Assembly: GCF_028858705.1 (NCBI RefSeq)
Contig: NC_072878.1
Location: 4,115,923-4,179,922, forward strand
Direction of reading: 5' to 3'
Source of the DNA: Grus americana
Lineage: Eukaryota
Length of the DNA stretch: 64,000 bases
Shown: positions 29,336 to 62,410 of the stretch, piece after piece
Numbering within the stretch: position 1 is the first letter of the stretch
Layout: the number at the start of each line of letters is the position of its first letter
Notes under the pieces: model-generated
Told to the model about the DNA's origin: nothing
What the model saw: the letters and a program-made list of their open reading frames with translations, nothing else
Databases searched by the model: none
Position numbers and translations under genes: made by a program

Positions 29336-29340
29336 CCCAG

Positions 29341-30102: not shown

Positions 30103-30104
30103 GT

Positions 30105-31140: not shown

Positions 31141-31169
31141 GCAGCACCCTGAGGTGGCTCTGGGTGCAG

Positions 31170-39676: not shown

Positions 39677-39919
39677 CTACTGCTTTACTACAGTAATGTA
39701 AACATACTTCAAAGAAGAATACACTAATGGTTTCGGAGATGACTTTCTAGCAGTAAAACCAGAGCAACAGAGCATATCAACCTCTTCTGAGAGCTCAGGC
39801 TGTACATTTATCCTTGAAGGACATCTTCTGGCATACAAGACAGGATTGACGGCCTTCATTTGTTCTTCTCCTAATAAAGATAGTCCAACAATTCGAAATG
39901 AGGTATGAAATGGAACCAC
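39677..39919 (-). pseudogene. RABGGTB: RABGGTB-derived terminal exon (acceptor ttcttctcccag|GTG...). About 75% identical to human C-terminus, but with compensating indels and loss of the ancestral stop (about 40-aa extension)
   Basis: Minus-strand translation [50 protein letters not shown]... versus human [45 protein letters not shown]. The stretch CMPEDVLQ is readable only in the +1 frame, consistent with two small indels. Conserved splice acceptor present. Confidence 0.55.
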
Positions 39920-41414
39920 CTGGGAGAAGAACGTGTTTGTTAACCTCCAAAAGCTATCCAGCTTTTGTTTGTACAGGATGGAGCTTTTGTTTCTTAGCAA
40001 GAGAACTGCAAACTCCATGGCTGAAGACGATGCTGCAACTGAATAAACTTTTGTCTTGCCTGCAAGCACGCATCAGAGCAATTTCTGTGGCATGCATTTA
40101 CGGCACTATGATTTACTCAGAGGTGTTTGTAGATTGTTTCCTGCTAAGACCTAAGGCAATTTTCAACTCTGCATTCAGCAGGAACCACTCATGTATTCCC
40201 AATAACACATAATGGCATCAAACAGAAGGAGCAAAGATGAGAAAGACTGAAAAGGTAAATTTGATAACCTCCAAATGCCTCTTCCATAAATGCCCCGTTT
40301 GCTGTTCAGGAACAGTATAATCCTCTTCAGCAGTCTCCGAATATAGAGCTTTGCTGTAAAATCTTAAGAGGGGAGTAGCAACCTACTGTGCTATAAAACT
40401 GAAAGAAGAAAATACAAGGAAGGAAAAAAACCCAAAAAGAGACAGCAGCAGTTACCAGGTATCCAAGCACTCCTTCACTGCATTAACTTTCCCCTGAAGC
40501 TTCTATCATCATACAACTGCAAGAGGCTATTTAAAGTGTCATGACACGAGCACCCTGGCAGTGGAGTTAATGAGTCACTCTACAAAATCCTATCCACAAT
40601 TACTGATTTGGTCTGGTGCAGAGTACATCCTGTTTATCTGATAAGATCCACAATTTCCACTTACAAGGGTCCTATAATGCAGACAACCAAGCAGAATTAT
40701 CGTATTATAACCACACGTAGGAGCCTCAACGACTTATCGCAGCCTAGAAGGTCAAAACTACACCAGCATAACAACAAATCCTACTCCTCGGTGGTTTGGC
40801 AAACACATTACAGGTATGGTGAAAGCACACAGATATAAAAGAAGCAAGTAAGCATATAAGAGCCCATATTGTATTGTTTTTCACCATGGTTTGCATGAGA
40901 ATCAAGTTCTGGTAACCCATATGAAACCCATGTAAAATCCAATAAAACCCATGCTGCTAGTGGCAGTGGTGATCGACCCGGGAGAACCTTGGAGCTCTTA
41001 CTCCTACAACGCAGGGAGGAGGGAATGAAATAAATACTCTTCAATGACAAGGAAAAATACATTCAAGTCATCCTCGACAACAGGCGACAAAACACTCAAG
41101 CCCAGGTTTCACGCTGAACAACAAGAGCGATTAACCACAGAGTTCCTCGGCACTGCTGCCTTTTCCAGCCCGCGGATAGTTTCCTCGCTCACTGACAAAG
41201 CGCGCGTTACAACTCCAGCCATCCGTGTGTTGACTGCGCATCAAAGCGAACAACTCCTTTTCAGCTGCTGTGCAGTCAGATATACATCCAAAAAACCTCA
41301 ACCAGCGTAACCTGCAGACAGCCGTGTAGTTGGGAACTGCCCTGGAGAGCCGCAGAGCCTCAGAAATACTGGGGGAAATGCTCAGAAATACAGTGGAAAG
41401 AAACTGGAGTTGCC

Positions 41415-41501
41415 TGGGTCTCAGAATAATTCTAGAGCTAAAGTGGTGACAGACATCAGCTTTACATCAGGTAATACATGCCAACACTCATCACTGACCC
41501 A
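41415..41501 (-). ncRNA. SNORD45: SNORD45-like C/D box snoRNA, variant B, copy 1
   Basis: Minus-strand RNA tgggtcagtgatgagtgttggcatgtattacCTGAtgtaaagcTGATGTctgtcaccactttagctctagaattattCTGAgaccca. C box GUGAUGA, D' CUGA, C' UGAUGU, D CUGA, 6-bp terminal stem tgggtc/gaccca. Guide upstream of D is complementary to 18S rRNA GGUAAUUCUAGAGCUAA. Guide upstream of D' is complementary to (G)UAAUACAUGCC(A). Confidence 0.85.
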
Positions 41502-42542
41502 AGAAGGCAACCTCCGCCTGCCCTACCCAAGGCTTTCAAACGCAGCACAGTTTCTGCCCAAAGCAGGATGCTACTTCATTTGTAACACCGCTGACAGATT
41601 TCTTCCTCGAGATGGGACGAGAGATACATCACGCGAACAACCAAGCCGCTGTTGGCAAGCACTGGAGCCTTTTTCTCCGTATTGTTTTTCACCGCCGTTT
41701 GCGTGAGAAGGAAAATCAAAGACAGAACAGGTGGAGATAGCCTTGGTGAAAAAATAAGATTCAGGCAACGTTCTCTTCTTGGTTTGGCGTCCCTTTTTTC
41801 TTTTCTTTTCCCCCTCTTCAGGATAAGAGTACAGGCCAAATAAATAAAGAAAACTTAGACCCGTCTTCCGAGCATTTCAAGCTATTACAGGAAAAAAGCA
41901 ATTTGAGGAAGACAACACAAGAACTGGCTACTACAACCCTTCTTTTCTACAAGACACTAAAGCGTAGACACGCTACACGCGTATAATTCATACGTTCTGC
42001 ATAACTATATCCTTTCTATAGACACCACACAAGTATGTGACTATATAGCATAATATTGACTGTCATACACATCTCTGTGTATAAGTATCTACGAAATCCA
42101 AACCTTTCCTCCTCCCCTGGCCAGGCACATCTTTCTCCTCAACATACCCCCCGGCTTGAGGAGAATTCATGAAATCCACAAGCAGTTATCGACAAGATCC
42201 CGCTACGACCTGTACCTAAGCAATGTTTCGGGGAGACTGCTACAAAATTCACAAAAAACGCAGACAAAAAGCCACCAGTAAAGGAACATTGAAAGCACAA
42301 TGTTCCCAAATCTGACAATTCTCTTTAGGAGATGAATCCTAAAGTTGGGCCCATCAGATTATTGTTGAATAAGGTACCAAAACCGTTCTTGCCATCCATA
42401 TCCAACTGCACCCAGTTCCTAAGTCTGCAGTCCTCAAGATCATGAATTGCAAGCGGTTGTTCCCACAGCGACCCTGTCACATTTACCCGGACGTCCTGGG
42501 GGTCGACACAAGATGAGGATCACGACCTGTGCCGGCACTTAC

Positions 42543-42700
42543 CGCACCACGTGCGCTGGCGTGATCTGATGAACGCCAGAATTCCGTCTGCCGTCAGTCG
42601 GTGCAGCCGTCGTCCCACGGGATCCCTCGCTGTCTGCCCCCAGGAAACGCCGCTCGTCCTCAAGTACTCCCGACAGACTGCGCCCCGAAGCAGGGCATGA
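42543..42700 (-). pseudogene. RABGGTB: RABGGTB exon-3-like pseudo-exon inside array unit (copies also at about 45468-45625, 48386-48543, 51319-51476)
   Basis: Minus-strand translation CREYLRTSGVSWGQTARDPVGRRLHRLTADGILAFIRSRQRTWCG|gtaagt, versus human [45 protein letters not shown]. Conserved EYLR, SG, WG, LHR and ILAFI. About 45% identity in one frame, followed by a consensus GTAAGT donor. Confidence 0.6.
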
Positions 42701-43533
42701 TTTTTACTTCTGAATCGGGTAAGCACAGCATCGAAACAGAGCAAGGAAAATGCCTCAGTTAAATGTTTTCCATCCCTTTAACCACTCAACACGTACTAAC
42801 CGCTCATATGTATCACACGCACCATGCGTGCCTGTACGTATGCCTGCGTACGTACGGGCGCCTGTGCCGGTAGGTACCTTACAGCACTACGTTTCCTTCC
42901 CCCCCATTTTCTAGTCCAGGAGCATCAAGCTCAATGTCAAGTTGCACGCATGCTACTAGTAAAGCGCCAGTTCACTTCAGATCATCGGGCATTATCTTAG
43001 CAGCCAAACTAACACTCACATCGCCACCGCGACCAGTCTCAAAAGTAACGGGACTAACGTTCCCTGAAACTTACTGTCGAGTGCCAAAGCTGCCACGACC
43101 TGAGGTGGCACTACAAAGGGAATTCTCATATGCATCTCTCCTCTTGTCTGCCTACGTCACCCGCGAGCATCACCTTCTTGATGCAGTACTTACAACCTGC
43201 ATGTTTTCAGCACAGCAACAAGCAGCACAGGCAACAGTGCCTCCCCCTCTTTCGGGGACACGAAAAGTAACTGCAGCTTTCCCCACCCCCCCCTCCAGAC
43301 ACAAGCAGTTATTGACATTTTCCACCTCCTGGAACTGGAATCCAGTTGCTGTTGGGGGCGATGTCTGGTAACCCACGCCGATAAAACCCGTGCTGCTAGC
43401 TGCCGTGGGGATCGACCCGAGCAACCAAGCAGCAGTGCTGCGCCCAGATTCGGCACGTTCTCCCGTCACGGGAGCCACGTGCAAATACAGCTGCACCCTC
43501 CTTGCCGATAAAGGGGCAACAAGAAGTTCGCTT

Positions 43534-43620
43534 CCCAGGTCTCAGAGTAATTCTAGAGCTAAGCTGATAGTCTTCAGGTTTATGCTCAGCTAATACATGC
43601 CAACACCCATCACCGACCCA
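43534..43620 (-). ncRNA. SNORD45: SNORD45-like C/D box snoRNA, variant A, copy 1
   Basis: Minus-strand RNA tgggtcggtgatgggtgttggcatgtattagCTGAgcataaacCTGAAGActatcagcttagctctagaattactCTGAgacctggg. C box GUGAUGG, D' CUGA, degenerate C', D CUGA, terminal stem gggtc/gacc. D'-guide ggcatgtattag pairs with 18S CUAAUACAUGCC. D-guide gcttagctctagaattac pairs with 18S GUAAUUCUAGAGCUAA. Confidence 0.8.
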
Positions 43621-43784
43621 GGGGAACGAACAGAGCGGCTCCCCTTTGCACGTCACGGGGGACTGCTGGGCAAGAGAGGAGCAGCTGGGGAGCACGCACC
43701 AAACCAACCCCACCTCTCCACAAGGCACTGAGGGTTGTCGCTCTTAATAAAAGCACGGCGGTGCTTTCGTAAGGCCTTACTCAC

Positions 43785-43886
43785 TCGGTCACCTTTCCTT
43801 GTCCCAGGCGAAACTCCGGGAGAAACACGCGGCCCGTACGGCAACGTGCTCGGGGCATCAGGGTTTCTTATCGCATCCTTTCGCAG
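43785..43886 (-). pseudogene. RABGGTB: RABGGTB exon-2-like pseudo-exon inside array unit (copies also at about 46710-46811, 49628-49729, 52561-52662)
   Basis: Minus-strand translation ...RKDAIRNPDAPSTLPYGPRVSPGVSPGTRKGDR|gtgagt. About 85% identical to the ancestral copy at 53862-53969 and about 40% to human [35 protein letters not shown]. The splice acceptor is lost in the array copies. Confidence 0.6.
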
Positions 43887-44340
43887 CGTCGCGTTGCACC
43901 GCACCGGGAGAACCTTGGGGCTCTTACTCCTACAACGCAGGGAGGAGGGAATGAAATAAATACTCTTCAATGACAAGGAAAAATACATTCAAGTCATCCT
44001 CGACAACAGGCGACAAAACACTCAAGCCCAGGTTTCACGCTGAACAACAAGAGCGATTAACCACAGAGTTCCTCGGCACTGCTGCCTTTTCCAGCCCGCG
44101 GATAGTTTCCTCGCTCACTGACAAAGCGCGCGTTACAACTCCAGCCATCCGTGTGTTGACTGCGCATCAAAGCGAACAACTCCTTTTCAGCTGCTGTGCA
44201 GTCAGATATACATCCAAAAAACCTCAACCAGCGTAACCTGCAGACAGCCGTGTAGTTGGGAACTGCCCTGGAGAGCTGCAGAGCCTCAGAAATACTGGGG
44301 GAAATGCTCAGAAATACAGTGGAAAGAAACTGGAGTTGCC

Positions 44341-44427
44341 TGGGTCTCAGAATAATTCTAGAGCTAAAGTGGTGACAGACATCAGCTTTACATCAGGTAA
44401 TACATGCCAACACTCATCACTGACCCA
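44341..44427 (-). ncRNA. SNORD45: SNORD45-like snoRNA, variant B, copy 2
   Basis: Identical to copy 1, at +2926. Confidence 0.85.
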
Positions 44428-46458
44428 AGAAGGCAACCTCCGCCTGCCCTACCCAGGCTTTCAAACGCAGCACAGTTTCTGCCCAAAGCAGGATGCTACT
44501 TCATTTGTAACACCGCTAACAGATTTCTTCCTCGAGATGGGACGAGAGATACATCACGCGAACAACCAAGCCGCTGTTGGCAAGCACTGGAGCCTTTTTC
44601 TCCGTATTGTTTTTCACCGCCGTTTGCGTGAGAAGGAAAATCAAAGACAGAACAGGTGGAGATAGCCTTGGTGAAAAAATAAGATTCAGGCAACGTTCTC
44701 TTCTTGGTTTGGCGTCCCTTTTTTCTTTTCTTTTCCCCCTCTTCAGGATAAGAGTACAGGCCAAATAAATAAAGAAAACTTAGACCCGTCTTCCGAGCAT
44801 TTCAAGCTATTACAGGAAAAAAGCAATTTGAGGAAGACAACACAAGAACTGGCTACTACAACCCTTCTTTTCTACAAGACACTAAAGCGTAGACACGCTA
44901 CACGCGTATAATTCATACGTTCTGCATAACTATATCCTTTCTATAGACACCACACAAGTATGTGACTATATAGCATAATATCGACTGTCATACACATCTC
45001 TGTGTATAAGTATCTATGAAATCCAAACCTTTCCTCCTCCCCTGGCCAGGCACATCTTTCTCCTCAACATACCCCCCGGCTTGAGGAGAATTCATGAAAT
45101 CCACAAGCAGTTATCGACAAGATCCCGCTACGACCTGTACCTAAGCAATGTTTCGGGGAGACTGCTACAAAATTCACAAAAAACGCAGACAAAAAGCCAC
45201 CAGTAAAGGAACATTGAAAGCACAATGTTCCCAAATCTGACAATTCTCTTTAGGAGATGAATCCTAAAGTTGGGCCCATCAGATTATTGTTGAATAAGGT
45301 ACCAAAACCGTTCTTGCCATCCATATCCAACTGCACCCAGTTCCTAAGTCTGCAGTCCTCAAGATCATGAATTGCAAGCGGTTGTTCCCACAGCGACCCT
45401 GTCACATTTACCCGGACGTGCTGGGGGTCGACACAAGATGAGGATCACGACCTGTGCCGGCACTTACCGCACCACGTGCGCTGGCGTGATCTGATGAACG
45501 CCAGAATTCCGTCTGCCGTCAGTCGGTGCAGCCGTCGTCCCGCGGGATCCCTCGCTGTCTGCCCCCAGGAAACGCCGCTCGTCCTCAAGTACTCCCGACA
45601 GACTGCGCCCCGAAGCAGGGCATGATTTTTACTTCTGAATCGGGTAAGCACAGCATCGAAACAGAGCAAGGAAAATGCCTCAGTTAAATGTTTTCCATCC
45701 CTTTAACCACTCAACACGTACTAACCGCTCATATGTATCACACGCACCATGCGTGCCTGTACGTATGCCTGCGTACGTACGGGCGCCTGTGCCGGTAGGT
45801 ACCTTACAGCACTACGTTTCCTTCCCCCCCATTTTCTAGTCCAGGAGCATCAAGCTCAATGTCAAGTTGCACGCATGCTACTAGTAAAGCGCCAGTTCAC
45901 TTCAGATCATCGGGCATTATCTTAGCAGCCAAACTAACACTCACATCGCCACCGCGACCAGTCTCAAAAGTAACGGGACTAACGTTCCCTGAAACTTACT
46001 GTCGAGTGCCAAAGCTGCCACGACCTGAGGTGGCACTACAAAGGGAATTCTCATATGCATCTCTCCTCTTGTCTGCCTACGTCACCCGCGAGCATCACCT
46101 TCTTGATGCAGTACTTACAACCTGCATGTTTTCAGCACAGCAACAAGCAGCACAGGCAACAGTGCCTCCCCCTCTTTCGGGGACACGAAAAGTAACTGCA
46201 GCTTTCCCCACCCCCCCCTCCAGACACAAGCAGTTATTGACATTTTCCACCTCCTGGAACTGGAATCCAGTTGCTGTTGGGGGCGATGTCTGGTAACCCA
46301 CGCCGATAAAACCCGTGCTGCTAGCTGCCGTGGGGATCGACCCGAGCAACCAAGCAGCAGTGCTGCGCCCAGATTCGGCACGTTCTCCCGTCACGGGAGC
46401 CACGTGCAAATACAGCTGCACCCTCCTTGCCGATAAAGGGGCAACAAGAAGTTCGCTT

Positions 46459-46545
46459 CCCAGGTCTCAGAGTAATTCTAGAGCTAAGCTGATAGTCTTC
46501 AGGTTTATGCTCAGCTAATACATGCCAACACCCATCACCGACCCA
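46459..46545 (-). ncRNA. SNORD45: SNORD45-like snoRNA, variant A, copy 2
   Basis: Identical to variant A copy 1. Confidence 0.8.
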
Positions 46546-47263
46546 GGGGAACGAACAGAGCGGCTCCCCTTTGCACGTCACGGGGGACTGCTGGGCAAGA
46601 GAGGAGCAGCTGGGGAGCACGCACCAAACCAACCCCACCTCTCCACAAGGCACTGAGGGTTGTCGCTCTTAATAAAAGCACGGCGGTGCTTTCGTAAGGC
46701 CTTACTCACTCGGTCACCTTTCCGTGTCCCGGGCGAAACTCCGGGAGAAACACGCGGCCCGTACGGCAACGTGCTCGGGGCATCAGGGTTTCTTATCGCA
46801 TCCTTTCGCAGCGTCGCGTTGCACCGCACCGGGAGAACCTTGGAGCTCTTACTCCTACAACGCAGGGAGGAGGGAATGAAATAAATACTCTTCAATGACA
46901 AGGAAAAATACATTCAAGTCATCCTCGACAACAGGCGACAAAACACTCAAGCCCAGGTTTCACGCTGAACAACAAGAGCGATTAACCAGAGTTCCTCGGC
47001 ACTGCTGCCTTTTCCAGCCCGCGGATAGTTTCCTCGCTCACTGACAAAGCGCGCGTTACAACTCCAGCCATCCGTGTGTTGACTGCGCATCAAAGCGAAC
47101 AACTCCTTTTCAGCTGCTGTGCAGTCAGATATACATCCAAAAAACCTCAACCAGCGTAACCTGCAGACAGCCGTGTAGTTGGGAACTGCCCTGGAGAGCC
47201 GCAGAGCCTCAGAAATACTGGGGGAAATGCTCAGAAATACAGTGGAAAGAAACTGGAGTTGCC

Positions 47264-47350
47264 TGGGTCTCAGAATAATTCTAGAGCTAAAGTGGTGACA
47301 GACATCAGCTTTACATCAGGTAATACATGCCAACACTCATCACTGACCCA
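47264..47350 (-). ncRNA. SNORD45: SNORD45-like snoRNA, variant B, copy 3
   Basis: Identical to copy 1. Confidence 0.85.
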
Positions 47351-49376
47351 AGAAGGCAACCTCCGCCTGCCCTACCCAGGCTTTCAAACGCAGCACAGTT
47401 TCTGCCCAAAGCAGGATGCTACTTCATTTGTAACACCGCTAACAGATTTCTTCCTCGAGATGGGACGAGAGATACATCACGCGAACAACCAAGCCGCTGT
47501 TGGCAAGCACTGGAGCCTTTTTCTCCGTATTGTTTTTCACCGCCGTTTGCGTGAGAAGGAAAATCAAAGACAGAACAGGTGGAGATAGCCTTGGTGAAAA
47601 AATAAGATTCAGGCAACGTTCTCTTCTTGGTTTGGCGTCCCTTTTTTCTTTTCTTTTCCCCCTCTTCAGGATAAGAGTACAGGCCAAATAAATAAAGAAA
47701 ACTTAGACCCGTCTTCCAAGCATTTCAAGCTATTACAGGAAAAAAGCAATTTGAGGAAGACAACACAAGAACTGGCTACTACAACCCTTCTTTTCTACAA
47801 GACACTAAAGCGTAGACACGCTACACGCGTATAATTCATACGTTCTGCATAACTATATCCTTTCTATAGACACAAGTATGTGACTATATAGCATAATATC
47901 GACTGTCATACACATCTCTGTGTATAAGTATCTATGAAATCCAAACCTTTCCTCCTCCCCTGGCCAGGCACATCTTTCTCCTCAACATACCCCCCGGCTT
48001 GAGGAGAATTCATGAAATCCACAAGCAGTTATCGACAAGATCCCGCTACGACCTGTACCTAAGCAATGTTTCGGGGAGACTGCTACAAAATTCACAAAAA
48101 ACGCAGACAAAAAGCCACCAGTAAAGGAACATTGAAAGCACAATGTTCCCAAATCTGACAATTCTCTTTAGGAGATGAATCCTAAAGTTGGGCCCATCAG
48201 ATTATTGTTGAATAAGGTACCAAAACCGTTCTTGCCATCCATATCCAACTGCACCCAGTTCCTAAGTCTGCAGCCCTCAAGATCATGAATTGCAAGCGGT
48301 TGTTCCCACAGCGACCCTGTCACATTTACCCGGACGTGCTGGGGGTCGACACAAGATGAGGATCACGACCTGTGCCGGCACTTACCGCACCACGTGCGCT
48401 GGCGTGATCTGATGAACGCCAGAATTCCGTCTGCCGTCAGTCGGTGCAGCCGTCGTCCCACGGGATCCCTCGCTGTCTGCCCCCAGGAAACGCCGCTCGT
48501 CCTCAAGTACTCCCGACAGACTGCGCCCCGAAGCAGGGCATGATTTTTACTTCTGAATCGGGTAAGCACAGCATCGAAACAGAGCAAGGAAAATGCCTCA
48601 GTTAAATGTTTTCCATCCCTTTAACCACTCAACACGTACTAACCGCTCATATGTATCACACGCACCATGCGTGCCTGTACGTATGCCTGCGTACGTACGG
48701 GCGCCTGTGCCGGTAGGTACCTTACAGCACTACGTTTCCTTCCCCCCCATTTTCTAGTCCAGGAGCATCAAGCTCAATGTCAAGTTGCACGCATGCTACT
48801 AGTAAAGCGCCAGTTCACTTCAGATCATCGGGCATTATCTTAGCAGCCAAACTAACACTCACATCGCCACCGCGACCAGTCTCAAAAGTAACGGGACTAA
48901 CGTTCCCTGAAACTTACTGTCGAGTGCCAAAGCTGCCACGACCTGAGGTGGCACTACAAAGGGAATTCTCATATGCATCTCTCCTCTTGTCTGCCTACGT
49001 CACCCGCGAGCATCACCTTCTTGATGCAGTACTTACAACCTGCATGTTTTCAGCACAGCAACAAGCAGCACAGGCAACAGTGCCTCCCCCTCTTTCGGGG
49101 ACACGAAAAGTAACTGCAGCTTTCCCCACCCCCCCCTCCAGACACAAGCAGTTATTGACATTTTCCACCTCCTGGAACTGGAATCCAGTTGCTGTTGGGG
49201 GCGATGTCTGGTAACCCACGCCGATAAAACCCGTGCTGCTAGCTGCCGTGGGGATCGACCCGAGCAACCAAGCAGCAGTGCTGCGCCCAGATTCGGCACG
49301 TTCTCCCGTCACGGGAGCCACGTGCAAATACAGCTGCACCCTCCTTGCCGATAAAGGGGCAACAAGAAGTTCGCTT

Positions 49377-49463
49377 CCCAGGTCTCAGAGTAATTCTAGA
49401 GCTAAGCTGATAGTCTTCAGGTTTATGCTCAGCTAATACATGCCAACACCCATCACCGACCCA
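49377..49463 (-). ncRNA. SNORD45: SNORD45-like snoRNA, variant A, copy 3
   Basis: Identical to variant A copy 1. Confidence 0.8.
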
Positions 49464-50191
49464 GGGGAACGAACAGAGCGGCTCCCCTTTGCACGTCACG
49501 GGGGACTGCTGGGCAAGAGAGGAGCAGCTGGGGAGCACGCACCAAACCAACCCCACCTCTCCACAAGGCACTGAGGGTTGTCGCTCTTAATAAAAGCACG
49601 GCGGTGCTTTCGTAAGGCCTTACTCACTCGGTCACCTTTCCTTGTCCCAGGCGAAACTCCGGGAGAAACACGCGGCCCGTACGGCAACGTGCTCGGGGCA
49701 TCAGGGTTTCTTATCGCATCCTTTCGCAGCGTCGCGTTGCACCGCACCGGGAGAACCTTGGGGCTCTTACTCCTACAACGCAGGGAGGAGGGAATGAAAT
49801 AAATACTCTTCAATGACAAGGAAAAATACATTCAAGTCATCCTCGACAACAGGCGACAAAACACTCAAGCCCAGGTTTCACGCTGAACAACAAGAGCGAT
49901 TAACCACAGAGTTCCTCGGCACTGCTGCCTTTTCCAGCCCGCGGATAGTTTCCTCGCTCACTGACAAAGCGCGCGTTACAACTCCAGCCATCCGTGTGTT
50001 GACTGCGCATCAAAGCGAACAACTCCTTTTCAGCTGCTGTGCAGTCAGATATACATCCAAAAAACCTCAACCAGCGTAACCTGCAGACAGCCGTGTAGTT
50101 GGGAACTGCCCTGGAGAGCTGCAGAGCCGCGGACCCTCAGAAATACTGGGGGAAATGCTCAGAAATACAGTGGAAAGAAACTGGAGTTGCC

Positions 50192-50278
50192 TGGGTCTCA
50201 GAATAATTCTAGAGCTAAAGTGGTGACAGACATCAGCTTTACATCAGGTAATACATGCCAACACTCATCACTGACCCA
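50192..50278 (-). ncRNA. SNORD45: SNORD45-like snoRNA, variant B, copy 4
   Basis: Identical to copy 1. Confidence 0.85.
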
Positions 50279-52309
50279 AGAAGGCAACCTCCGCCTGCCC
50301 TACCCAGGCTTTCAAACGCAGCACAGTTTCTGCCCAAAGCAGGATGCTACTTCATTTGTAACACCGCTAACAGATTTCTTCCTCGAGATGGGACGAGAGA
50401 TACATCACGCGAACAACCAAGCCGCTGTTGGCAAGCACTGGAGCCTTTTTCTCCGTATTGTTTTTCACCGCCGTTTGCGTGAGAAGGAAAATCAAAGACA
50501 GAACAGGTGGAGATAGCCTTGGTGAAAAAATAAGATTCAGGCAACGTTCTCTTCTTGGTTTGGCGTCCCTTTTTTCTTTTCTTTTCCCCCTCTTCAGGAT
50601 AAGAGTACAGGCCAAATAAATAAAGAAAACTTAGACCCGTCTTCCGAGCATTTCAAGCTATTACAGGAAAAAAGCAATTTGAGGAAGACAACACAAGAAC
50701 TGGCTACTACAACCCTTCTTTTCTACAAGACACTAAAGCGTAGACACGCTACACGCGTATAATTCATACGTTCTGCATAACTATATCCTTTCTATAGACA
50801 CCACACAAGTATGTGACTATATAGCATAATATCGACTGTCATACACATCTCTGTGTATAAGTATCTATGAAATCCAAACCTTTCCTCCTCCCCTGGCCAG
50901 GCACATCTTTCTCCTCAACATACCCCCCCGCTTGAGGAGAATTCATGAAATCCACAAGCAGTTATCGACAAGATCCCGCTACGACCTGTACCTAAGCAAT
51001 GTTTCGGGGAGACTGCTACAAAATTCACAAAAAACGCAGACAAAAAGCCACCAGTAAAGGAACATTGAAAGCACAATGTTCCCAAATCTGACAATTCTCT
51101 TCAGGAGATGAATCCTAAAGTTGGGCCCATCAGATTATTGTTGAATAAGGTACCAAAACCGTTCTTGCCATCCATATCCAACTGCACCCAGTTCCTAAGT
51201 CTGCAGTCCTCAAGATCATGAATTGCAAGCGGTTGTTCCCACAGCGACCCTGTCACATTTACCCGGACGTGCTGGGGGTCGACACAAGATGAGGATCACG
51301 ACCTGTGCCGGCACTTACCGCACCACGTGCGCTGGCGTGATCTGATGAACGCCAGAATTCCGTCTGCCGTCAGTCGGTGCAGCCGTCGTCCCACGGGATC
51401 CCTCGCTGTCTGCCCCCAGGAAACGCCGCTCGTCCTCAAGTACTCCCGACAGACTGCGCCCCGAAGCAGGGCATGATTTTTACTTCTGAATCGGGTAAGC
51501 ACAGCATCGAAACAGAGCAAGGAAAATGCCTCAGTTAAATGTTTTCCATCCCTTTAACCACTCAACACGTACTAACCGCTCATATGTATCACACGCACCA
51601 TGCGTGCCTGTACGTATGCCTGCGTACGTACGGGCGCCTGTGCCGGTAGGTACCTTACAGCACTACGTTTCCTTCCCCCCCATTTTCTAGTCCAGGAGCA
51701 TCAAGCTCAATGTCAAGTTGCACGCATGCTACTAGTAAAGCGCCAGTTCACTTCAGATCATCGGGCATTATCTTAGCAGCCAAACTAACACTCACATCGC
51801 CACCGCGACCAGTCTCAAAAGTAACGGGACTAACGTTCCCTGAAACTTACTGTCGAGTGCCAAAGCTGCCACGACCTGAGGTGGCACTACAAAGGGAATT
51901 CTCATATGCATCTCTCCTCTTGTCTGCCTACGTCACCCGCGAGCATCACCTTCTTGATGCAGTACTTACAACCTGCATGTTTTCAGCACAGCAACAAGCA
52001 GCACAGGCAACAGTGCCTCCCCCTCTTTCGGGGACACGAAAAGTAACTGCAGCTTTCCCCACCCCCCCCTCCAGACACAAGCAGTTATTGACATTTTCCA
52101 CCTCCTGGAACTGGAATCCAGTTGCTGTTGGGGGCGATGTCTGGTAACCCACGCCGATAAAACCCGTGCTGCTAGCTGCCGTGGGGATCGACCCGAGCAA
52201 CCAAGCAGCAGTGCTGCGCCCAGATTCGGCACGTTCTCCCGTCACGGGAGCCACGTGCAAATACAGCTGCACCCTCCTTGCCGATAAAGGGGCAACAAGA
52301 AGTTCGCTT

Positions 52310-52396
52310 CCCAGGTCTCAGAGTAATTCTAGAGCTAAGCTGATAGTCTTCAGGTTTATGCTCAGCTAATACATGCCAACACCCATCACCGACCCA
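52310..52396 (-). ncRNA. SNORD45: SNORD45-like snoRNA, variant A, copy 4
   Basis: Identical to variant A copy 1. Confidence 0.8.
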
Positions 52397-53116
52397 GGGG
52401 AACGAACAGAGCGGCTCCCCTTTGCACGTCACGGGGGACTGCTGGGCAAGAGAGGAGCAGCTGGGGAGCACGCACCAAACCAACCCCACCTCTCCACAAG
52501 GCACTGAGGGTTGTCGCTCTTAATAAAAGCACGGCGGTGCTTTCGTAAGGCCTTACTCACTCGGTCACCTTTCCGTGTCCCGGGCGAAACTCCGGGAGAA
52601 ACACGCGGCCCGTACGGCAACGTGCTCGGGGCATCAGGGTTTCTTATCGCATCCTTTCGCAGCGTCGCGTTGCACCGCACCGGGAGAACCTTGGAGCTCT
52701 TACTCCTACAACGCAGGGAGGAGGGAATGAAATAAATACTCTTCAATGACAAGGAAAAATACATTCAAGTCATCCTCGACAACAGGCGACAAAACACTCA
52801 AGCCCAGGTTTCACGCTGAACAACAAGAGCGATTAACCACACAGTTCCTCGGCACTGCTGCCTTTTCCAGCCCGCGGATAGTTTCCTCGCTCACTGACAA
52901 AGCACGCGTTACAACTCCAGCCATCCGTGTGTTGACTGCGCATCAAAGCGAACAACTCCTTTTCAGCTGCTGTGCAGTCAGATATACATCCAAAAAACCT
53001 CAACCAGCGTAACCTGCAGACAGCCGTGTAGTTGGGAACTGCCCTGGAGAGCCGCGGACCCTCAGAAATACTGGGGGAAATGCTCAGAAATACAGTGGAA
53101 AGAAACTGGAGTTGCC

Positions 53117-53203
53117 TGGGTCTCAGAATAATTCTAGAGCTAAAGTGGTGACAGACATCAGCTTTACATCAGGTAATACATGCCAACACTCATCACTGAC
53201 CCA
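53117..53203 (-). ncRNA. SNORD45: SNORD45-like snoRNA, variant B, copy 5
   Basis: Identical to copy 1. Confidence 0.85.
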
Positions 53204-53861
53204 AGAAGGCAACCTCCGCCTGCCCTACCCAAGGCTTTCAAATGCAGCACAGTTTCTGCCCAAAGCAGGATGCTACTTCATTTGTAACACCGCTAACAGA
53301 TTTCTTCCTCGAGATGGGACGAGAGATACATCACGCGAACAACCAAGCCGCTGTTGGCAAGCACTGGAGCCTTTTTCTCCGTATTGTTTTTCACCGCCGT
53401 TTGCGTGAGAAGGAAAATCAAAGACAGAACAGGTGGAGATAGCCTTGGTGAAAAAATAAGATTCAGGCAACGTTCTCTTCTTGGTTTGGCGTCCCTTTTT
53501 TCTTTTCTTTTCCCCCTCTTCAGGATAAGAGTACAGGCCAAATAAATAAAGAAAACTTAGACCCGTCTTCCGAGCATTTCAAGTTATTACAGGAAAAAAG
53601 CAATTTGAGGAAGACAACACAAGAACTGGCTACTACAACCCTTCTTTTCTTTTGTACAGGACACTAAAGCATAGACACATTATGCAGGTATAATTGATAC
53701 ATCCTGCATAACTATATCGTTTATATAAACATTATGCAAGTATGTAATTATATATTATAATAATTAAAGCTAAAAACTTATGTTTAATTACTAAGTGATT
53801 GCATTTTATAATATACAGTAATAGCTATTGGGCCGTATAAGTACCTGAAAAAGCCACTCAC

Positions 53862-53969
53862 TCGGTCACCCTTCTTTGTCCCAGGCGAAGTTTCTGGAGA
53901 AACACGCCGCCAGTATGGCAACGTGCTCGGGGCATCAGGGTTTCTTATCGCCTCCTTCCGCGGTGTCAC
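53862..53969 (-). pseudogene. RABGGTB: Ancestral (single-copy) RABGGTB exon-2-like exon with intact acceptor ttttcacag|GTG and donor CGA|gtgagt
   Basis: VTPRKEAIRNPDAPSTLPYWRRVSPETSPGTKKGDR, 36 codons in frame, adjacent to the CpG island. Only about 40% identical to human RABGGTB residues 3-38, so coding constraint appears relaxed. Confidence 0.55.
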
Positions 53970-53999
53970 CTGTGAAAAACACCATCAAAACGTCAGTTT

Positions 54000-54850
54000 T
54001 GGCGTCAGCCGTGGGGGTTGCCGTGCCCGGGGTTCATTAGGGGAGCTCAGCAGCCGTCACTGCCCGTTCGGACTCGGAGCTTTCTCCGCCCGTCCTGACC
54101 CTGGGGCACATTTCCTTCCCGGCCCGGCTGACCGCCCCCCCCTCCGCCCAGGGAAGTGCGCGAAGGGATGCGCCCAGCGAGGCTGAGGTGAGCCACCATC
54201 TCCCCGCGGCCGCCCCGACCGTCGGGAGACCGTAACCCGCCCAGGGACCCGCGATCCCCCCACCGCCGCCAGCCTCGACCTAGGCCAGCTCAGCCGCACT
54301 GTCGCGTCCGTCACACCGCTATATCTGGAGCGACCGGGCCCGCAGCCCCCGCGCCGCCCCCAGCTGCCGAGGCACCGGCCCCGAGCTGGGCCCTTCCCCC
54401 ACCATGCGGCAGCAGCACCCGCCCCCGCCGCCGCCCGCGCCGGAAAGAGCGTCCCGCCGCGGGGCGGAGCTAGATGGGTCTCCCGGCAGGACCCCGCTGT
54501 AGCTGCCTCGCCGTTCGCCTGACCCGCGCTGGCGGACTGAGGCGGCGGCGCCTGGGGCGGGCAGGACGCGGCGGTCAGGCGTTCGCCCCGCGGTGGGAAG
54601 GTCCCGCCCGGAAGCGGGGTGTCCATGGCGACCGGCGCGGCTCTGAGGAGAGGTCGTTCCCGGTGCTCTGCCCCGGGGCGGGGGAGGGCAGCTGCTCTTC
54701 CCTGCGGAAATAAACTCCTTTCCTCCCTCTTTAAAACCGATTCCTCTGAGCGCGCTGTGAATTGCCAACGCTGGACTCTGGCAGCCGCTAGCCGTGTCGG
54801 GCGGGAACACCATTTGAAGACTATACAATAAAAAAAATATGTATAATGCT
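54000..54850. promoter_or_regulatory. CpG island, likely bidirectional promoter (minus-strand RABGGTB-derived snoRNA host transcript; plus-strand spliced transcript)
   Basis: Extremely CpG/GC-rich with no long coding frame that makes sense. The RABGGTB-like exon 2 lies 40 bp to its left on the minus strand. A plus-strand splice donor (aca|gtaagt) sits at its right edge (54873). Confidence 0.55.
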
Positions 54851-55745: not shown

Positions 55746-58042
55746 AAATCTCACAGAAATTCTTCCTTCTCAGCTGTTCTTGCTGCAAATGTAGTCAAGT
55801 GTATGTACTGATGGAAAGGTTTAGACTAGATTTGAAATAAACGTGATGCTGTAAGACATTCTTAGTGGAAAAACCACACACTTTCACTTGAATCACCCTA
55901 ATTGAAGGTTTACTTGCTTAGGGAGTAAGCGGTGAAAGGGCGCCATGCTCTCTGAAGCTGATGATAGTGTGTTACTGCTGGATAGCATCTCAAGACACTC
56001 TTGCAGACAACAGCAACACAGGCCTCAGTGCTGCTGAGCTGCAAGGGCTGTTCAGCTGCGGTGGGCTGTAGTGTAGTGAGAACTGCAGTATGGCTGTAAC
56101 ATACTTCAGACACTGGACAACTTCCCTGAGCTACAATTTAAATGATGTGACAAGCAAAGTGAACAAAAGAACCACACCTCTCTGCTTATAAACTTGTATT
56201 TTTTTATTAGAATGCAGCAATGCCTGTCAGAAATAGTATTTTGATCCTCTAATTTTACAGTGAAAAAACATAGTGTTGCGAGGTTCTCATTTGTTGCCCC
56301 TTATTGTATTTGTTATAATTCAAAATAAGGCAGTTTCCTACAGGTTCTTTCACATGGGATCAGTTAAAATGGAAATGTTTAAAATTGAATTATCGTATTT
56401 ATTTTTTCCCCACTGTGATGGAAACACATATTTCAGCTGTATTACTCAAGTGCTGTACTTAACATTCACCCATAAAGAAGAAGTCTTACTTAAGGTACAA
56501 GAAAACAAGTATTTTCTTCATAAACATTACAGGTTTCTTTGAGGCACAGAGATGAATACATTGAATGACAATTTCTGTCTTTGTTGAATTCAGGTGAATA
56601 AGATGGTGAAGTCACTGAAAAGAAGGCCAATGAAAACAAAAACTAGTTTTTGTTCATACTGACTCATGGATGCATATAAAATAGAGATAATGTGCAATCA
56701 GTAATGCAGCCACCGTTTGAAAAATAACACCTGTGTAGTAATTTAAGAGAATGTATGTTTTTGACAGGTCCAGAAGTCAGCACGTATTCACTTTCCATTT
56801 TTTTAAAAGTTGCAAGTTTTCTAAAGGCCAGTGTTATCATATTTATTTTAGCAAGTGGTGACCTAAAAACCATGTGCTGCAAAATGGTATTGCTGAGGAA
56901 GCGGAACAGCTTATTTAAATTTCCCTGAGATTTATTAATTTGATATCCACCCAACTCCAGTGCTAAAACAGTGGGTGCAAATGTGTCACTATAACCAATA
57001 CAGAAACACCTAAAATCCAATTTGTTGTTACATGCTGAATGCCTTCACAGACACACACACAAATATCTGAGTTTTATTCACTTTTTTGATCATATAAATT
57101 TTAAATTTTTCTCCCACCAAAAGTCAAAGGTTTCAGTGAAAGAGATTGAGTGGGGAAAGATGCCAAACTATCACTTTGGAATTCAGAAATGTTTAGAAAA
57201 CACCAAGTTTGTTAGTCAGAAAGAATGAAGTGAGAGAATGGATGGGGAGTACAGAATAGTGCTTAATCATGTACACAGTAAAAAGATTTGAAGGAAAAGA
57301 GTTTTTTCCACGTCTTTCTAATTGAGAAACACACTGAAAATCCTCTTCTATGAGAGCACAGAACACTACAGCAGCAGCCAGATATGCTTGATACATATCC
57401 TTAAGCCTTATATTTGCCAACATGTTCACGAGCTATGATCATCCTTTGAATCTGAGCAGTTCCCTCATAAATCTGAAAAGAAGAATTGCAATAATGTTAA
57501 CTGATAATTTTTTAAAACATTTTAGCAGGTCTTTCTACGCTTGTAAACCTTCACAGCACTTATCTAGTGTGGATTAGGATGTGTAGAAAGAAAAAACTGA
57601 AAAAAATTCTAGTGCAACTCGAGTAACTACAGTGGGCTAAATGCAATAAATCCTTATACGAGATACTGAGAGACAGGCTTGTTCTCTCAGATGCTTTTAT
57701 CAAAACTCAGTAAGGTTCTCATGAAATTAAGAGTGAGGAAGGATGGGGAAAATGGGGGAGAAAATACATATTTTAGGTTTTACAAAGAAGGTTATAAAAC
57801 AGTGGGTTGAGGGGAAGAAGTGACCTGTGCTGAAAGTGTCGTATTTTCTTTGACTAGCCTTTCAAGGCTGTAGCAAGTGTACCCTTTCATGCAGTTATCC
57901 AGTTATTCCCACTGCTCCTTAACTCTTTCTCTCTTGAACACAGTATTTTATTTTTTTTTTAAACTATGTATTCTTGCATTTTCCTCTAGAAACAGTCTGC
58001 ATCTTCCCTCTGGTTTTTTTTGGCTTGCTGGCAAAGTCAGAT

Positions 58043-58586
58043 TGTATTGGGTCTGGCTGAGATGGAGTTAAGTCTCCCCACAGCAGCCCTCATGGTGCTG
58101 TGCTGTGTATTCGTAGCTAGCAAAGTGTTGATAACACACCAGTGTTTTGGCTACGACTGAGCAGTGCCAGCACACATCAAGGCCGTCTCTCCAACATTTC
58201 TTTCCCCCCCTGCCCAGCAGCAGGCTGGGGGTAGGCAAGATCTTGGGAGGGGACACAGCCAGGACAGCTGACCCAAACTGACCAAAGGGATATTCCATTT
58301 ACAATGTTTGTCTTCCGCAGTAAGGGGTACGCTTACTGAAGCCCTACTTCCCAGGAAGTGGCTGGACATCGCCTGCTGATGGGAAGTAGAGAATAATCTT
58401 TTGCTTTTTGCTTTGCTTCTGCGCGCGGCTTTTTGCTTTAGCTACATTAAACTGCCTTTATCTTGACCCACGAGTTTGGGGTTGGTTTTCCATCTTAGTT
58501 TCTCTCCTCCCTGCCTTGCTGAGGAGGGGAGTGATAGAGTGGCTTGGTGGACACTTGGCTTCCAGCCAAGGGTAAACCACCACACA
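58043..58586 (+). mobile_element. Solo LTR-like fragment (3' part related to the LTR family at 21200-21400)
   Basis: ...ctgcctttatcttgacccacgagtttggggttggttttccatcttagtttctctcctccctgccttgctgaggaggggagtgatagagtggcttggtggacacttggcttccagccaagggtaaaccaccaca parallels gttttgcccatgacggtaactggtg...cttatctcgacccacaagccttacgttatattttctctcccctgtccagttgag. Confidence 0.5.
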
Positions 58587-61153: not shown

Positions 61154-61402
61154 CTGGTAGATTTTAGCATCTCTCATTAATTTTTCTACAGGATATTCAG
61201 TATTAAATCCATTTCCACCAAAAATCTGCACTGCATCCGTAGCTACTTGGTTTGCAACATCACCAGCGAATGCCTTCGCAATGGAAGCATAGTAGGTATT
61301 CCTGCGACCAGCATCGACTTCCCACGCAGCTCTCTGGTAAGCCATCCTAGCAAGTTCCACTTTCATTGCCATTTCAGCAAGCATGAAAGACACCGCTTGG
61401 TG
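61154..61402 (-). CDS. ACADM: ACADM penultimate coding exon ([83 protein letters not shown])
   Basis: About 93% identical to the human medium-chain acyl-CoA dehydrogenase C-terminal region. Acceptor cacttacag|CAC and donor CAG|gtaagt on the minus strand. Confidence 0.9.
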
Positions 61403-62090: not shown

Positions 62091-62243
<153 letters not shown>

Positions 62244-62268
62244 TTAAGTAACTTATTTCTGATACTTA

Positions 62269-62410
62269 CAGGTGGTCTGGTCTTATCAAAAGCTCCCATT
62301 GCTATTTTAAAGCCAGCTCCCTCAGCTATTAGTACATTTTCTTTTGGAACTCTCACATCTTCAAAGACAATACCTCTTGTATCAGAGCAGCGCTGACCCA
62401 TATTCATTTC
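62269..62410 (-). CDS. ACADM: ACADM exon ([47 protein letters not shown])
   Basis: Acceptor cccttttcag|GAA. Donor CCT|gtaagt. Human [47 protein letters not shown]. Confidence 0.9.

What the first reader, a model, noticed from the sequence alone, without database searches (positions are those of the whole stretch)
41415..43620. Two SNORD45 paralog types with different box quality and guide mismatches
Variant B has a perfect C box (UGAUGA) and a good C' box. Its D'-guide has an internal C for G change (tattaCctga versus tattaGctga) that weakens pairing to 18S CUAAUACAUGCC.

Variant A has a weaker C box (UGAUGG) and a degenerate C' (CUGAAGA), but both guides match 18S over 12-16 nt.

The two types alternate strictly along the array (A, B, A, B...). 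This mirrors the exon2 / intron / exon3 / intron unit and suggests sub-functionalisation of the two methylation sites (human 18S Am159/Am166/Cm174 region) between paralogs.
Basis: partly seen in the sequence, partly recalled or inferred. Interest (0 to 1): 0.5.

Follow-up and report, generated by a model that had tools for sequence, protein, structure and literature searches.

The report
SNORD45 array in dead RABGGTB gene
The two SNORD45 "types" are the old intron-2 and intron-3 copies of a bird's RABGGTB gene, both still able to guide the same two 18S rRNA methylations, and they alternate only because a 2.9-kb piece of the now-dead host gene carrying one of each was copied in tandem.

Summary
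Nine SNORD45 genes (Rfam, 61-64 bits) lie on the minus strand: five of type B and four of type A, in strict alternation.

The interpretation mostly fails.
- Alternation follows from a 2.93-kb tandem unit (4.4 copies, 99.3-99.6% identical) that carries one A and one B.
- A is the RABGGTB intron-2 paralog and B the intron-3 paralog. Both are older than the Galliformes-Neoaves split.
- The G-to-C change lies at guide position 1, next to box D'. All canonical bird copies carry a mismatching U there.
- Both types keep a 15-16 bp D' duplex (human 18S U172) and a 16-bp D duplex (A159). That argues redundancy, not sub-functionalisation.
- UGAUGG keeps a G-U pair with the base before box D. The UGAAGA C' box is shared by four of the five canonical intron-2 copies.

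The more interesting result is the context. The host is a decayed RABGGTB at its ancestral place next to ACADM: exons 4-8 are gone, the rest are frameshifted, and exons diverge at about the intron rate or faster. The snoRNA cores, the promoter CpG island and most splice sites survive. Expression was not tested, and the functional RABGGTB copy was not located.

The parts
41415..41499 (-). SNORD45 type B (intron-3 paralog), copy 1. Identical copies lie at 44341-44425, 47264-47348, 50192-50276 and 53117-53201.
   Evidence: Rfam RF00279, 64.2 bits, E 8e-11. Copies identical with flanks. Flanks align to RABGGTB intron 3 of Rissa, Amazona and Penelope. Guides analysed.
43536..43618 (-). SNORD45 type A (intron-2 paralog), copy 1. 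Identical copies lie at 46461-46543, 49379-49461 and 52312-52394.
   Evidence: Rfam RF00279, 61.3 bits. Contiguous homology with intron 2 and exon 3 of canonical bird RABGGTB. Four of the five canonical intron-2 copies share its UGAAGA C' box; Rissa has UGAACA.
40978..53762 (-). Tandem array of a ~2926-bp unit: 4 full units, a 437-bp partial unit at the low end and a 646-bp partial unit at the high end.
   Evidence: Self-BLAST gives units 99.3-99.6% identical. The four full units differ by 17 substitutions and 5 indel events, and several variants follow the pattern u1=u3, u2=u4.
43785..43929 (-). Chimeric exon remnant: exon-5 acceptor plus the first ~30 nt of exon 5, fused to an exon-2 copy with a GTGAGT donor. 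This is the duplication junction. Repeated at 46710-46854, 49628-49772 and 52561-52705. A truncated copy starts at 41003.
   Evidence: Alignments to five canonical birds. Coordinates.
42487..42685 (-). Exon-3 remnant of RABGGTB, frameshifted. The acceptor AG is mutated to CG and the donor GTAAAT is kept. Repeated at 45412-45610, 48330-48528 and 51263-51461.
   Evidence: tblastn 53% identity with a frameshift. Alignment. 24% nucleotide divergence plus 7 indel columns against Balaeniceps.
53862..53969 (-). Original exon-2 remnant at the 5' edge of the array. Acceptor CAG and donor GTGAGT are kept, and the coding sense is lost.
   Evidence: 39% divergence against Balaeniceps for the repeated exon-2 copy inside the units.
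53800..54800 (-). CpG island at the position of the RABGGTB promoter and exon 1; the presumed promoter of the host transcript.
   Evidence: GC 0.48-0.79 (0.66-0.79 over 54000-54800) and CpG o/e 0.74-1.04. It matches the position of the Rissa RABGGTB promoter island.
39791..39921 (-). Last-exon remnant of RABGGTB, with two frameshifts and the acceptor CAG kept. The adjoining last-intron sequence extends up to 40829.
   Evidence: tblastn 64% identity. blastn to the Amazona, Penelope and Phainopepla last intron and exon. Sequence.
57407..63374 (-). ACADM, last five exons, intact. This upstream neighbour marks the locus as the ancestral ACADM-RABGGTB position.
   Evidence: tblastn 75-91% identity to human. 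94-96% to bird ACADM. No abnormal substitutions.

Best explanation
Types A and B are the intron-2 and intron-3 SNORD45 paralogs of RABGGTB. They were inherited from the bird ancestor rather than newly diverged.

Both are complete box C/D guide RNAs of the SNORD45A kind. By the fifth-nucleotide rule, the guide before box D' places 18S U172 (human numbering) for 2'-O-methylation, and the guide before box D places A159. Their small differences fall at positions that tolerate change. The two types are therefore redundant, not specialised.

In this bird, RABGGTB at its ancestral place downstream of ACADM has lost its coding function. A fragment running from exon 2 to the start of exon 5, which carries both snoRNA introns, was then duplicated in tandem. 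It is now present about 4.4 times, giving 5 B and 4 A genes.

The most likely working model is as follows. The retained CpG-island promoter still drives a non-coding transcript through the array. Splicing at the retained donor and acceptor sites releases introns, and the snoRNAs are trimmed out of them, protected by their long terminal and external stems.

Shown: identity, orthology, guide pairing, host decay, the order of events, and the array structure.
Inferred: transcription, splicing, snoRNP assembly, actual methylation, and any benefit of the higher copy number.
For: Family and copy number:
- Nine matches at 61-64 bits against a gathering score of 42, with no further weak copies.

Orthology:
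- The unit maps colinearly onto intact RABGGTB of Rissa. Window 43674-42162 matches intron 2 with its SNORD45 plus exon 3. Window 41673-41397 matches intron 3. Window 41305-40981 matches the end of intron 4 and the start of exon 5.
- Penelope has intact copies in both introns.
- Chicken has two SNORD45-type genes in RABGGTB, guiding 18S A158 and U171 in chicken numbering (PMC2653536).

Guides:
- Both types have a D' duplex of 15 bp from position 2 and a D duplex of 16 bp.
- The numbering of the recalled 18S was checked against the known sites (PMC11550049).

Selection on the snoRNA:
- Against Balaeniceps, exon 2 differs by 39%, introns by 30.5%, exon 3 by 24% plus indels, and snoRNA A by 14.5%.
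- By my own comparison of the sequences, none of the 12 snoRNA differences falls in a box core, in guide positions 2 onward, or in the terminal stem.

Processing signals:
- The terminal plus external stems are the strongest of all bird copies examined, at -22.5 and -24.2 kcal/mol.

Host decay and retained signals:
- Exons 4-8 are absent and the remaining exons are frameshifted.
- The CpG island is kept.
- The exon-2 donor, the exon-5 acceptor, the exon-3 donor and the last-exon acceptor are kept.

Order of events:
- Of 79 exon-2 columns invariant in five canonical birds, 21 carry the same derived base in both the edge copy and the repeated copy, while 9 carry copy-specific changes (3 edge-only, 3 unit-only, 3 where both differ but differently). 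Decay therefore came before duplication.
Against: - No expression, RNA-end or methylation data were available.
- The canonical exon-3 acceptor is AG-to-CG in every unit. If no cryptic site is used, A and B share one 2.8-kb intron, which is unusual for vertebrate snoRNAs.
- No AATAAA or ATTAAA was found within 500 nt downstream of the last-exon remnant.
- The species' own 18S rRNA was not available. A human sequence recalled from memory was used, supported only indirectly by the duplex lengths published for chicken.
- Variation within the array says nothing about selection: about 1.3 variants are expected in the snoRNAs and none was seen.
- The copy number could be mis-assembled.
- The functional RABGGTB that this bird must have was not located.
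Confidence: 0.72

Rival explanations
1. Sub-functionalisation: type B has lost efficient U172 guiding and type A has a weakened snoRNP core, so the two methylation sites are divided between the paralogs.
For: - Human SNORD45 paralogs really are specialised: Am159 is guided by 45A and 45C, Um172 by 45A and 45B, and Cm174 by 45C (PMC11550049).
- A and B differ at about 12 positions, including the C and C' boxes.
Against: - Both types keep both guides at 15-16 bp.
- The B-specific mismatch is at position 1, where all canonical bird copies are also mismatched.
- The C' box UGAAGA is shared by four of the five canonical bird intron-2 copies.
- UGAUGG keeps a G-U pair with the base before box D and also occurs in the intact Penelope intron-3 copy.
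Confidence: 0.06
2. Dead relics: the whole locus is an untranscribed pseudogene, the nine snoRNA copies are non-functional, and they look intact only by chance or because they were copied recently.
For: - The host gene is clearly dead as a coding gene.
- The exon-3 acceptor is lost.
- Intron-3 copies have decayed in the other Neoaves sampled.
- There are no expression data.
Against: - The snoRNA diverges at half the intron rate, with no change in about 55 core positions. By my estimate (0.695^55) the neutral chance is of the order of 1e-9 at 30% divergence.
- Both strands of the B external stem changed so that a strong helix remains.
- The promoter CpG island keeps an o/e of 0.74-1.04, while nearby ACADM introns have 0.17.
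Confidence: 0.1
3. Assembly artefact: the real locus has one unit (one A and one B) or a different copy number, and the 4.4 copies come from mis-assembly of a repeat or of haplotypes.
For: - The units are 99.3-99.6% identical.
- The window holds other very recent duplicates, such as a 2.16-kb inverted repeat at 99.6%.
- No reads were available for checking.
Against: - The units differ by 17 substitutions and 5 indel events, not by homopolymer noise. Several variants are shared by alternate units, which looks like a real duplication history.
- The edge and repeated exon-2 copies are 10% apart, so at least one duplication is old.
Confidence: 0.12

Closest known systems
SNORD45A/B/C in introns of mammalian RABGGTB, and chicken GGgCD5 (two copies in RABGGTB introns)
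   Same: - Same Rfam family.
- Same host gene lineage and the same neighbour, ACADM.
- Same 18S target region.
- Like SNORD45A and chicken GGgCD5, each RNA carries two guides, for A159 and U172. The chicken guides are 17 nt and 13 nt (PMC2653536).
   Different: - The host no longer encodes RabGGTase beta.
- The two snoRNA introns are present 4-5 times each, not once.
- No copy has a SNORD45C-type guide for C174.
Non-coding snoRNA host genes such as GAS5 and the chicken gas5-like host (own knowledge; chicken case in PMC2653536)
   Same: The proposed role is the same: a spliced transcript whose only evident product is the intron-encoded box C/D snoRNAs.
   Different: - GAS5-type hosts have no recognisable coding ancestor and carry different snoRNAs in successive introns.
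- Here the coding ancestor is still recognisable, and the same two snoRNAs are repeated.
- Splicing and a 5'-TOP start were not shown here.
Tandemly repeated box C/D snoRNA arrays in repeated exon-intron units: SNORD115/116 at 15q11, SNORD113/114 at 14q32, and rat Bsr/RBII-36 (own knowledge; the 14q32 paper is only listed as reference B33 of PMC2653536)
   Same: A repeated unit made of a short non-coding exon plus an intron with one snoRNA, amplified in tandem.
   Different: - Those arrays are imprinted mammalian loci with tens of copies of orphan snoRNAs.
- This is a small array (9 genes) of canonical rRNA guides in a bird, derived from a housekeeping gene.
lncRNAs that are fossils of ancestral protein-coding genes (Hezroni et al. 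2017, PMC5577775)
   Same: A formerly coding locus kept at its syntenic position, with a promoter and some exon structure after losing the reading frame.
   Different: That survey does not mention snoRNA hosts. Here the reason for retention would be the intronic snoRNAs.

Membership tests
SNORD45 (Rfam RF00279), box C/D snoRNA | Covariance-model score at or above the curated gathering score (42 bits). | tested here: met
   64.2 bits for the five B copies and 61.3 bits for the four A copies, all full length 1-72/72.
SNORD45 (Rfam RF00279), box C/D snoRNA | Box C (RUGAUGA) near the 5' end and box D (CUGA) near the 3' end, closed by a terminal stem. | tested here: met
   B has GUGAUGA...CUGA with GGGUC/GACCC. 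A has GUGAUGG...CUGA with GGUC/GACC. Position 7 pairs with the U before box D, as A-U or G-U. Both have external stems of -22.5 and -24.2 kcal/mol.
SNORD45 (Rfam RF00279), box C/D snoRNA | Internal D' and C' boxes. | tested here: met
   D' is CUGA in both. C' is UGAUGU in B and UGAAGA in A. Four of the five canonical bird intron-2 copies also have UGAAGA.
SNORD45 (Rfam RF00279), box C/D snoRNA | Guides of at least 10 bp that place 18S A159 (D guide) and U172 (D' guide) opposite the fifth base upstream of the box. | tested here: met
   15 bp (D') and 16 bp (D) from position 2 in both types. The 18S was recalled from memory and its numbering verified. The result agrees with the chicken guide lengths in PMC2653536. 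The species' own 18S was not available.
SNORD45 (Rfam RF00279), box C/D snoRNA | Location in introns of RABGGTB. | tested here: met
   The flanks are orthologous to introns 2 and 3 of RABGGTB, but the gene is a pseudogene here.
SNORD45 (Rfam RF00279), box C/D snoRNA | A stable ~85-nt RNA bound by fibrillarin/NOP56/NOP58/SNU13, with the target actually methylated. | not testable with these tools
   No expression or RiboMeth-seq data.
Non-coding snoRNA host gene | No conserved open reading frame. | tested here: met
   Exons 4-8 are missing and exon 3 and the last exon are frameshifted. Exon 2 differs from canonical birds by 39% at nucleotide level, and its 5'-edge copy is 37% identical to human at amino-acid level.
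Non-coding snoRNA host gene | Transcribed and spliced, with one snoRNA per intron. | tested here: inconclusive
   The CpG island is kept, and three of the four splice sites within each unit are kept. The exon-3 acceptor is AG-to-CG, with only a cryptic AG 8 nt downstream. No RNA data.
Tandem snoRNA arrays (SNORD115/116 type) | A repeated exon-intron unit, each carrying a snoRNA. | tested here: met
   A 2926-bp unit present 4.4 times, each with exon remnants and two snoRNA introns.
Tandem snoRNA arrays (SNORD115/116 type) | Orphan snoRNAs at an imprinted mammalian locus. | tested here: not met
   These copies have canonical rRNA guides and the genome is avian. Imprinting was not tested.

The most novel reading that the evidence does not exclude
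In this bird lineage the essential RABGGTB function moved to another locus. The ancestral locus was then kept by selection only as a SNORD45 producer and was amplified after it had stopped coding.

That would be a vertebrate rRNA-guide snoRNA array born from a dead housekeeping gene. It might also be the main SNORD45 source in the genome. A similar unseen locus in other Neoaves could explain two observations in canonical RABGGTB: the intron-3 copy has decayed, and several intron-2 copies carry guide mismatches.
Probability: 0.2. Interest if true: 0.6.

Novelty: new variant of a known kind. Interest (0 to 1): 0.38.

Why it matters
The two-type finding itself is ordinary. They are old paralogs with tolerated differences and the same predicted targets.

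The context has some value. It appears to be a clear, datable case of a protein-coding snoRNA host turning into a snoRNA-only host and then being amplified. The order of events can be read from the sequence: coding decay came first, duplication second, and recent homogenisation of the units last.

It offers a simple test of whether selection on intronic snoRNAs alone can preserve a promoter and splice sites. It also raises the question of where this bird's essential RabGGTase beta gene now lies.

Tried and rejected
- **Missing exons.** I looked for RABGGTB exons 4-8 anywhere in the window by tblastn at E<=10 and found none.
- **Weak extra copies.** An Rfam search in E-value mode over 37-57.5 kb found no further SNORD45 copies.
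- **Variation within the array.** This is not informative as a test of selection. There are 22 variant events in 2926 bp, so about 1.3 are expected in the 168 nt of snoRNA, and P(0) is about 0.28.
- **Edge unit against inner unit.** The apparent P of 0.002 is invalid, because the differences cluster at the end of the homology (53650-53762). I discarded it.
- **Search for the same locus in relatives.**
  - ACADM-anchored look-ups in raptors returned only partial ACADM duplicates without RABGGTB or SNORD45 (L001, L002, L008).
  - An MVP-anchored search found no bird MVP proteins.
  - Four look-ups failed because the sequence was not on record, probably because they were shorter isoforms.
  - A metagenome scan for the B-type 5' half found nothing.
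- **Alternative D' box in type B.** I considered whether a different box position could shift the target to C174. No suitable box exists 2 nt upstream.
- **Species.** It could not be identified. The best ACADM protein hits are various birds at 94-96%. At the DNA level the nearest sampled sequences are accipitrid ACADM copies, at 12-13% intron divergence.
Full report
**1. What is in the sequence**

Rfam finds exactly nine SNORD45 (RF00279) genes in the window. All are on the minus strand and all are full length.
- Five are 85 nt and score 64.2 bits (type B: 41415, 44341, 47264, 50192, 53117).
- Four are 83 nt and score 61.3 bits (type A: 43536, 46461, 49379, 52312).
- A more permissive search of 37-57.5 kb adds no weaker copy.
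- Copies of one type are identical, including 15 nt of flank on each side.

| Feature | Type B | Type A |
|---|---|---|
| C box | GUGAUGA | GUGAUGG |
| C' box | UGAUGU | UGAAGA |
| Bases before box D' | UUAC | UUAG |

The order along the window is strictly B A B A B A B A B.

**2. Why the types alternate**

A self-comparison shows a tandem array from 40978 to about 53762. The unit is ~2926 bp and the full units are 99.3-99.6% identical. Each full unit holds one B and one A, so alternation follows automatically from copying the unit and says nothing more.

The four full units differ by 17 substitutions and 5 indel events. Several variants are shared by units 1+3 and by units 2+4, as if a two-unit block had been copied. 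None of the variants lies in a snoRNA. Only about 1.3 would be expected there, so this is not evidence of selection.

**3. What the unit is**

- The last five exons of ACADM lie on the minus strand at 63374-57407. They are well conserved: 75-91% identity to human and 94-96% to birds, with no abnormal substitutions.
- CR1 and ERV sequences, together with the ACADM hits, show that this is a bird genome.
- Downstream of ACADM, where birds and mammals have RABGGTB, only wreckage of that gene is found (the query was human RABGGTB recalled from memory):
  - an exon-2 remnant at 53969-53862;
  - an exon-3 remnant in every unit (for example 42685-42487, frameshifted);
  - a frameshifted last exon at 39921-39791.
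- Exons 4-8 are absent from the window.
- Intact RABGGTB loci were fetched from Rissa (L003), Amazona (L004), Phainopepla (L005), Penelope (L006) and Balaeniceps (L007). They encode proteins 94-98% identical to one another, so the window copy is unquestionably a pseudogene.

The unit maps colinearly onto the intact gene:

| Window (minus strand) | Corresponds to |
|---|---|
| 43674-42162 | intron 2 with its SNORD45, plus exon 3 |
| 41673-41397 | intron 3 |
| 41305-40981 | end of intron 4 and first ~30 nt of exon 5 |

The duplication junction fuses the start of exon 5 to exon 2. This creates a 145-nt chimeric exon remnant at 43929-43785. Homology to the canonical locus continues through the last intron, the last exon and about 2 kb of 3' flank. 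MSH4, the usual next gene, is missing. A GC-rich major vault protein gene lies there instead.

**4. Identity of the two types**

Type A is the intron-2 paralog and type B the intron-3 paralog.
- Penelope (Galliformes) has intact copies in both introns, and its intron-2 copy is itself duplicated.
- Chicken is reported to have two SNORD45-type genes (GGgCD5) in RABGGTB (PMC2653536).
- In four sampled Neoaves the intron-2 copy is intact. The intron-3 copy is degenerate in Rissa (33.8 bits), Balaeniceps (36.8) and Amazona (29.9), and absent in Phainopepla.
- Window B shares GUGAUGAGUG and CACCAC with the neoavian intron-3 relics. Window A shares the UGAAGA C' box with the intron-2 copies of Penelope, Amazona, Phainopepla and Balaeniceps; Rissa has UGAACA.

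The two types are therefore older than the Galliformes-Neoaves split. The "degenerate" C' box of A is its normal state.

**5. Guides and boxes**

I used the 5' part of human 18S from memory. Its numbering reproduces A159, A166, U172 and C174. Anchoring the fifth base upstream of each box gives these duplexes:

| Type | D' guide (U172) | D guide (A159) |
|---|---|---|
| A | 15 bp from position 2, plus G-C at position 1 | 16 bp from position 2 |
| B | 15 bp from position 2, C-C mismatch at position 1 | 16 bp from position 2, with G-U at position 2 |

- Position 1 is U, also a mismatch, in every canonical bird copy. The G/C difference is therefore at a freely varying end position, not inside the duplex.
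- From structural work on C/D RNPs (own knowledge), the base next to box D/D' is not part of the roughly 10-bp substrate duplex.
- The lengths fit the 13-nt and 17-nt duplexes published for chicken.
- In human, Am159 is assigned to SNORD45A and C, Um172 to 45A and B, Cm174 to 45C, and Am166 to SNORD44 (PMC11550049; PMC8393311). Both window types are thus of the SNORD45A kind, and neither can reach C174 or A166.
- C-box position 7 pairs with the base before box D, which is U in all bird copies. This gives A-U in B and G-U in A and in the intact Penelope intron-3 copy. The Rfam consensus has U with an A before box D.

Sub-functionalisation is therefore not supported. The snoRNAs pass that test, but it did not bear on the sub-functionalisation claim.

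**6. Evidence that the snoRNAs are still under selection**

Divergence between the window and Balaeniceps:

| Region | Divergence |
|---|---|
| Exon 2 | 39% |
| Introns | 30.5% |
| Exon 3 | 24%, plus 7 indel columns |
| snoRNA A | 14.5%, no indels |

- Among canonical birds, exon 3 differs by only 5-7.5%.
- By my own comparison of the sequences, the 12 differences in A all lie outside the box cores, guide positions 2 onward and the terminal stem.
- That leaves about 55 core positions unchanged. By my estimate (0.695^55), the chance of this at the intron rate is of the order of 1e-9.
- Both types are closed by long terminal plus external stems (-22.5 and -24.2 kcal/mol), the strongest among the bird copies compared.
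- In B, changes on both strands rebuilt the external helix (GUUGCC/GGCAAC) in a new register relative to the canonical GUUUUC.../GGAAAC (my reading of the predicted folds).

**7. State of the host**

- A CpG island (CpG o/e 0.74-1.04; GC 0.66-0.79 over 54000-54800) persists at 53800-54800, where the Rissa RABGGTB promoter island lies. ACADM introns nearby have a CpG o/e of 0.17. This suggests a promoter that is still unmethylated, and so probably active, in the germ line. That is an inference.
- The exon-2 acceptor (edge copy only), the exon-2 donor GTGAGT, the exon-5 acceptor, the exon-3 donor and the last-exon acceptor are kept. The exon-3 acceptor is AG-to-CG in all units, with a possible cryptic AG 8 nt downstream.
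- If exon 3 is skipped, A and B would lie in one intron.
- No canonical poly(A) signal was seen within 500 nt of the last exon.

**8. Order of events**

- Of 79 exon-2 columns that are invariant in five canonical birds, 21 carry the same derived base in both the 5'-edge exon 2 and the repeated exon 2. Nine carry copy-specific changes: 3 edge-only, 3 unit-only and 3 where both differ but differently. Coding constraint was therefore lost well before the first duplication.
- The edge and inner exon-2 copies are about 10% apart, whereas the inner units are about 0.5% apart. This indicates an old first duplication followed by recent re-amplification or homogenisation.
- The array is GC- and CpG-enriched (GC 0.50, o/e 0.77) compared with the orthologous Rissa sequence (GC 0.37, o/e 0.54). 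Its introns are about 0.1 more diverged than expected from the ACADM side. This is compatible with biased gene conversion in a recombining array, which is an inference.

**9. What remains open**

- RabGGTase beta is essential (own knowledge), so a working copy must exist outside the window. It was not found.
- The species was not identified. The nearest sampled DNA is accipitrid: 12-13% intron divergence to partial ACADM duplicates of Buteo and Morphnus, which lack RABGGTB and SNORD45.
- Expression, splicing, methylation and the true copy number could not be tested.

**10. Verdict**

The functional reading (weakened guide, box quality, division of labour) is not supported.

The two types are ancient, redundant dual-guide SNORD45 paralogs. 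The notable feature is their setting: a tandemly amplified fragment of a dead RABGGTB gene that appears to be kept as a snoRNA host. This is a new variant of known kinds (non-coding snoRNA hosts and tandem snoRNA arrays) and of moderate interest.

Noticed in passing
window 25300-36470 (+): A complete-looking, very GC-rich (0.57-0.67) major vault protein (MVP) gene. The best protein matches are turtles (80-85%), and no bird MVP appears among the top 120 hits. It may be one of the 'hidden' GC-rich avian genes. It lies tail-to-tail with the RABGGTB remnant, where MSH4 is expected.
   Followed up: partly
window 12286-14442 (+) and 21405-23562 (-): A 2.16-kb inverted repeat, 99.6% identical, carrying a CR1 LINE reverse-transcriptase ORF. 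It is a very recent duplication. Other repeats: 18873-19455 against 32777-33362 (95%), and an 84-bp tandem repeat at 20504-20702.
   Followed up: partly
window 1304-2959 (-): Endogenous-retrovirus pol remnant, with open RNase H/integrase-like ORFs of 338 and 213 aa.
   Followed up: no
L003 24496-24575; L007 5363-5443; L004 6362-6439; L005 (none): In canonical RABGGTB of four Neoaves the intron-3 SNORD45 copy is degenerate or absent, whereas it is intact in Penelope and in the window.
   Followed up: partly
L003 22354-22436; L004 4248-4330; L005 4275-4357: The single intact-looking intron-2 SNORD45 of Rissa, Amazona and Phainopepla has mismatches inside a guide. The D guide is mismatched at position 6 (Rissa), 8 (Phainopepla) and 14 (Amazona), and the Amazona D' guide at positions 7-8. 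This raises the question of how Am159 and Um172 are guided in these species. Only Balaeniceps and Penelope have perfect guides.
   Followed up: no
L006 4256-4338 and 5646-5728: Penelope has two near-identical SNORD45 copies inside intron 2, 1390 bp apart, with identical flanks. This is an independent tandem duplication within an intact RABGGTB.
   Followed up: no
L001 (Buteo buteo OZ076932.1), L002 and L008 (Morphnus guianensis CM098419.1, CM098420.1): Accipitrid genomes carry several partial duplicates of the 3' half of ACADM with decaying exons. At least two (L001, L008) lie near chromosome ends, and none is followed by RABGGTB or SNORD45. L008 extends through the intergenic region to window 55408, just short of the RABGGTB CpG island.
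   Followed up: partly
window 40978-53762: The array has GC 0.50 and CpG o/e 0.77. The orthologous Rissa sequence has GC 0.37 and o/e 0.54, and nearby ACADM introns have o/e 0.17. The array's intronic sequence is also unusually diverged from other birds (0.29-0.35).
   Followed up: partly
window 53650-53862: The 5'-most unit lacks type A and exon 3. Exon 2 is followed after about 100-200 nt by intron-3 sequence and a B copy, and homology to the inner units fades over 53650-53762. The rearrangement that produced this edge was not worked out.
   Followed up: no
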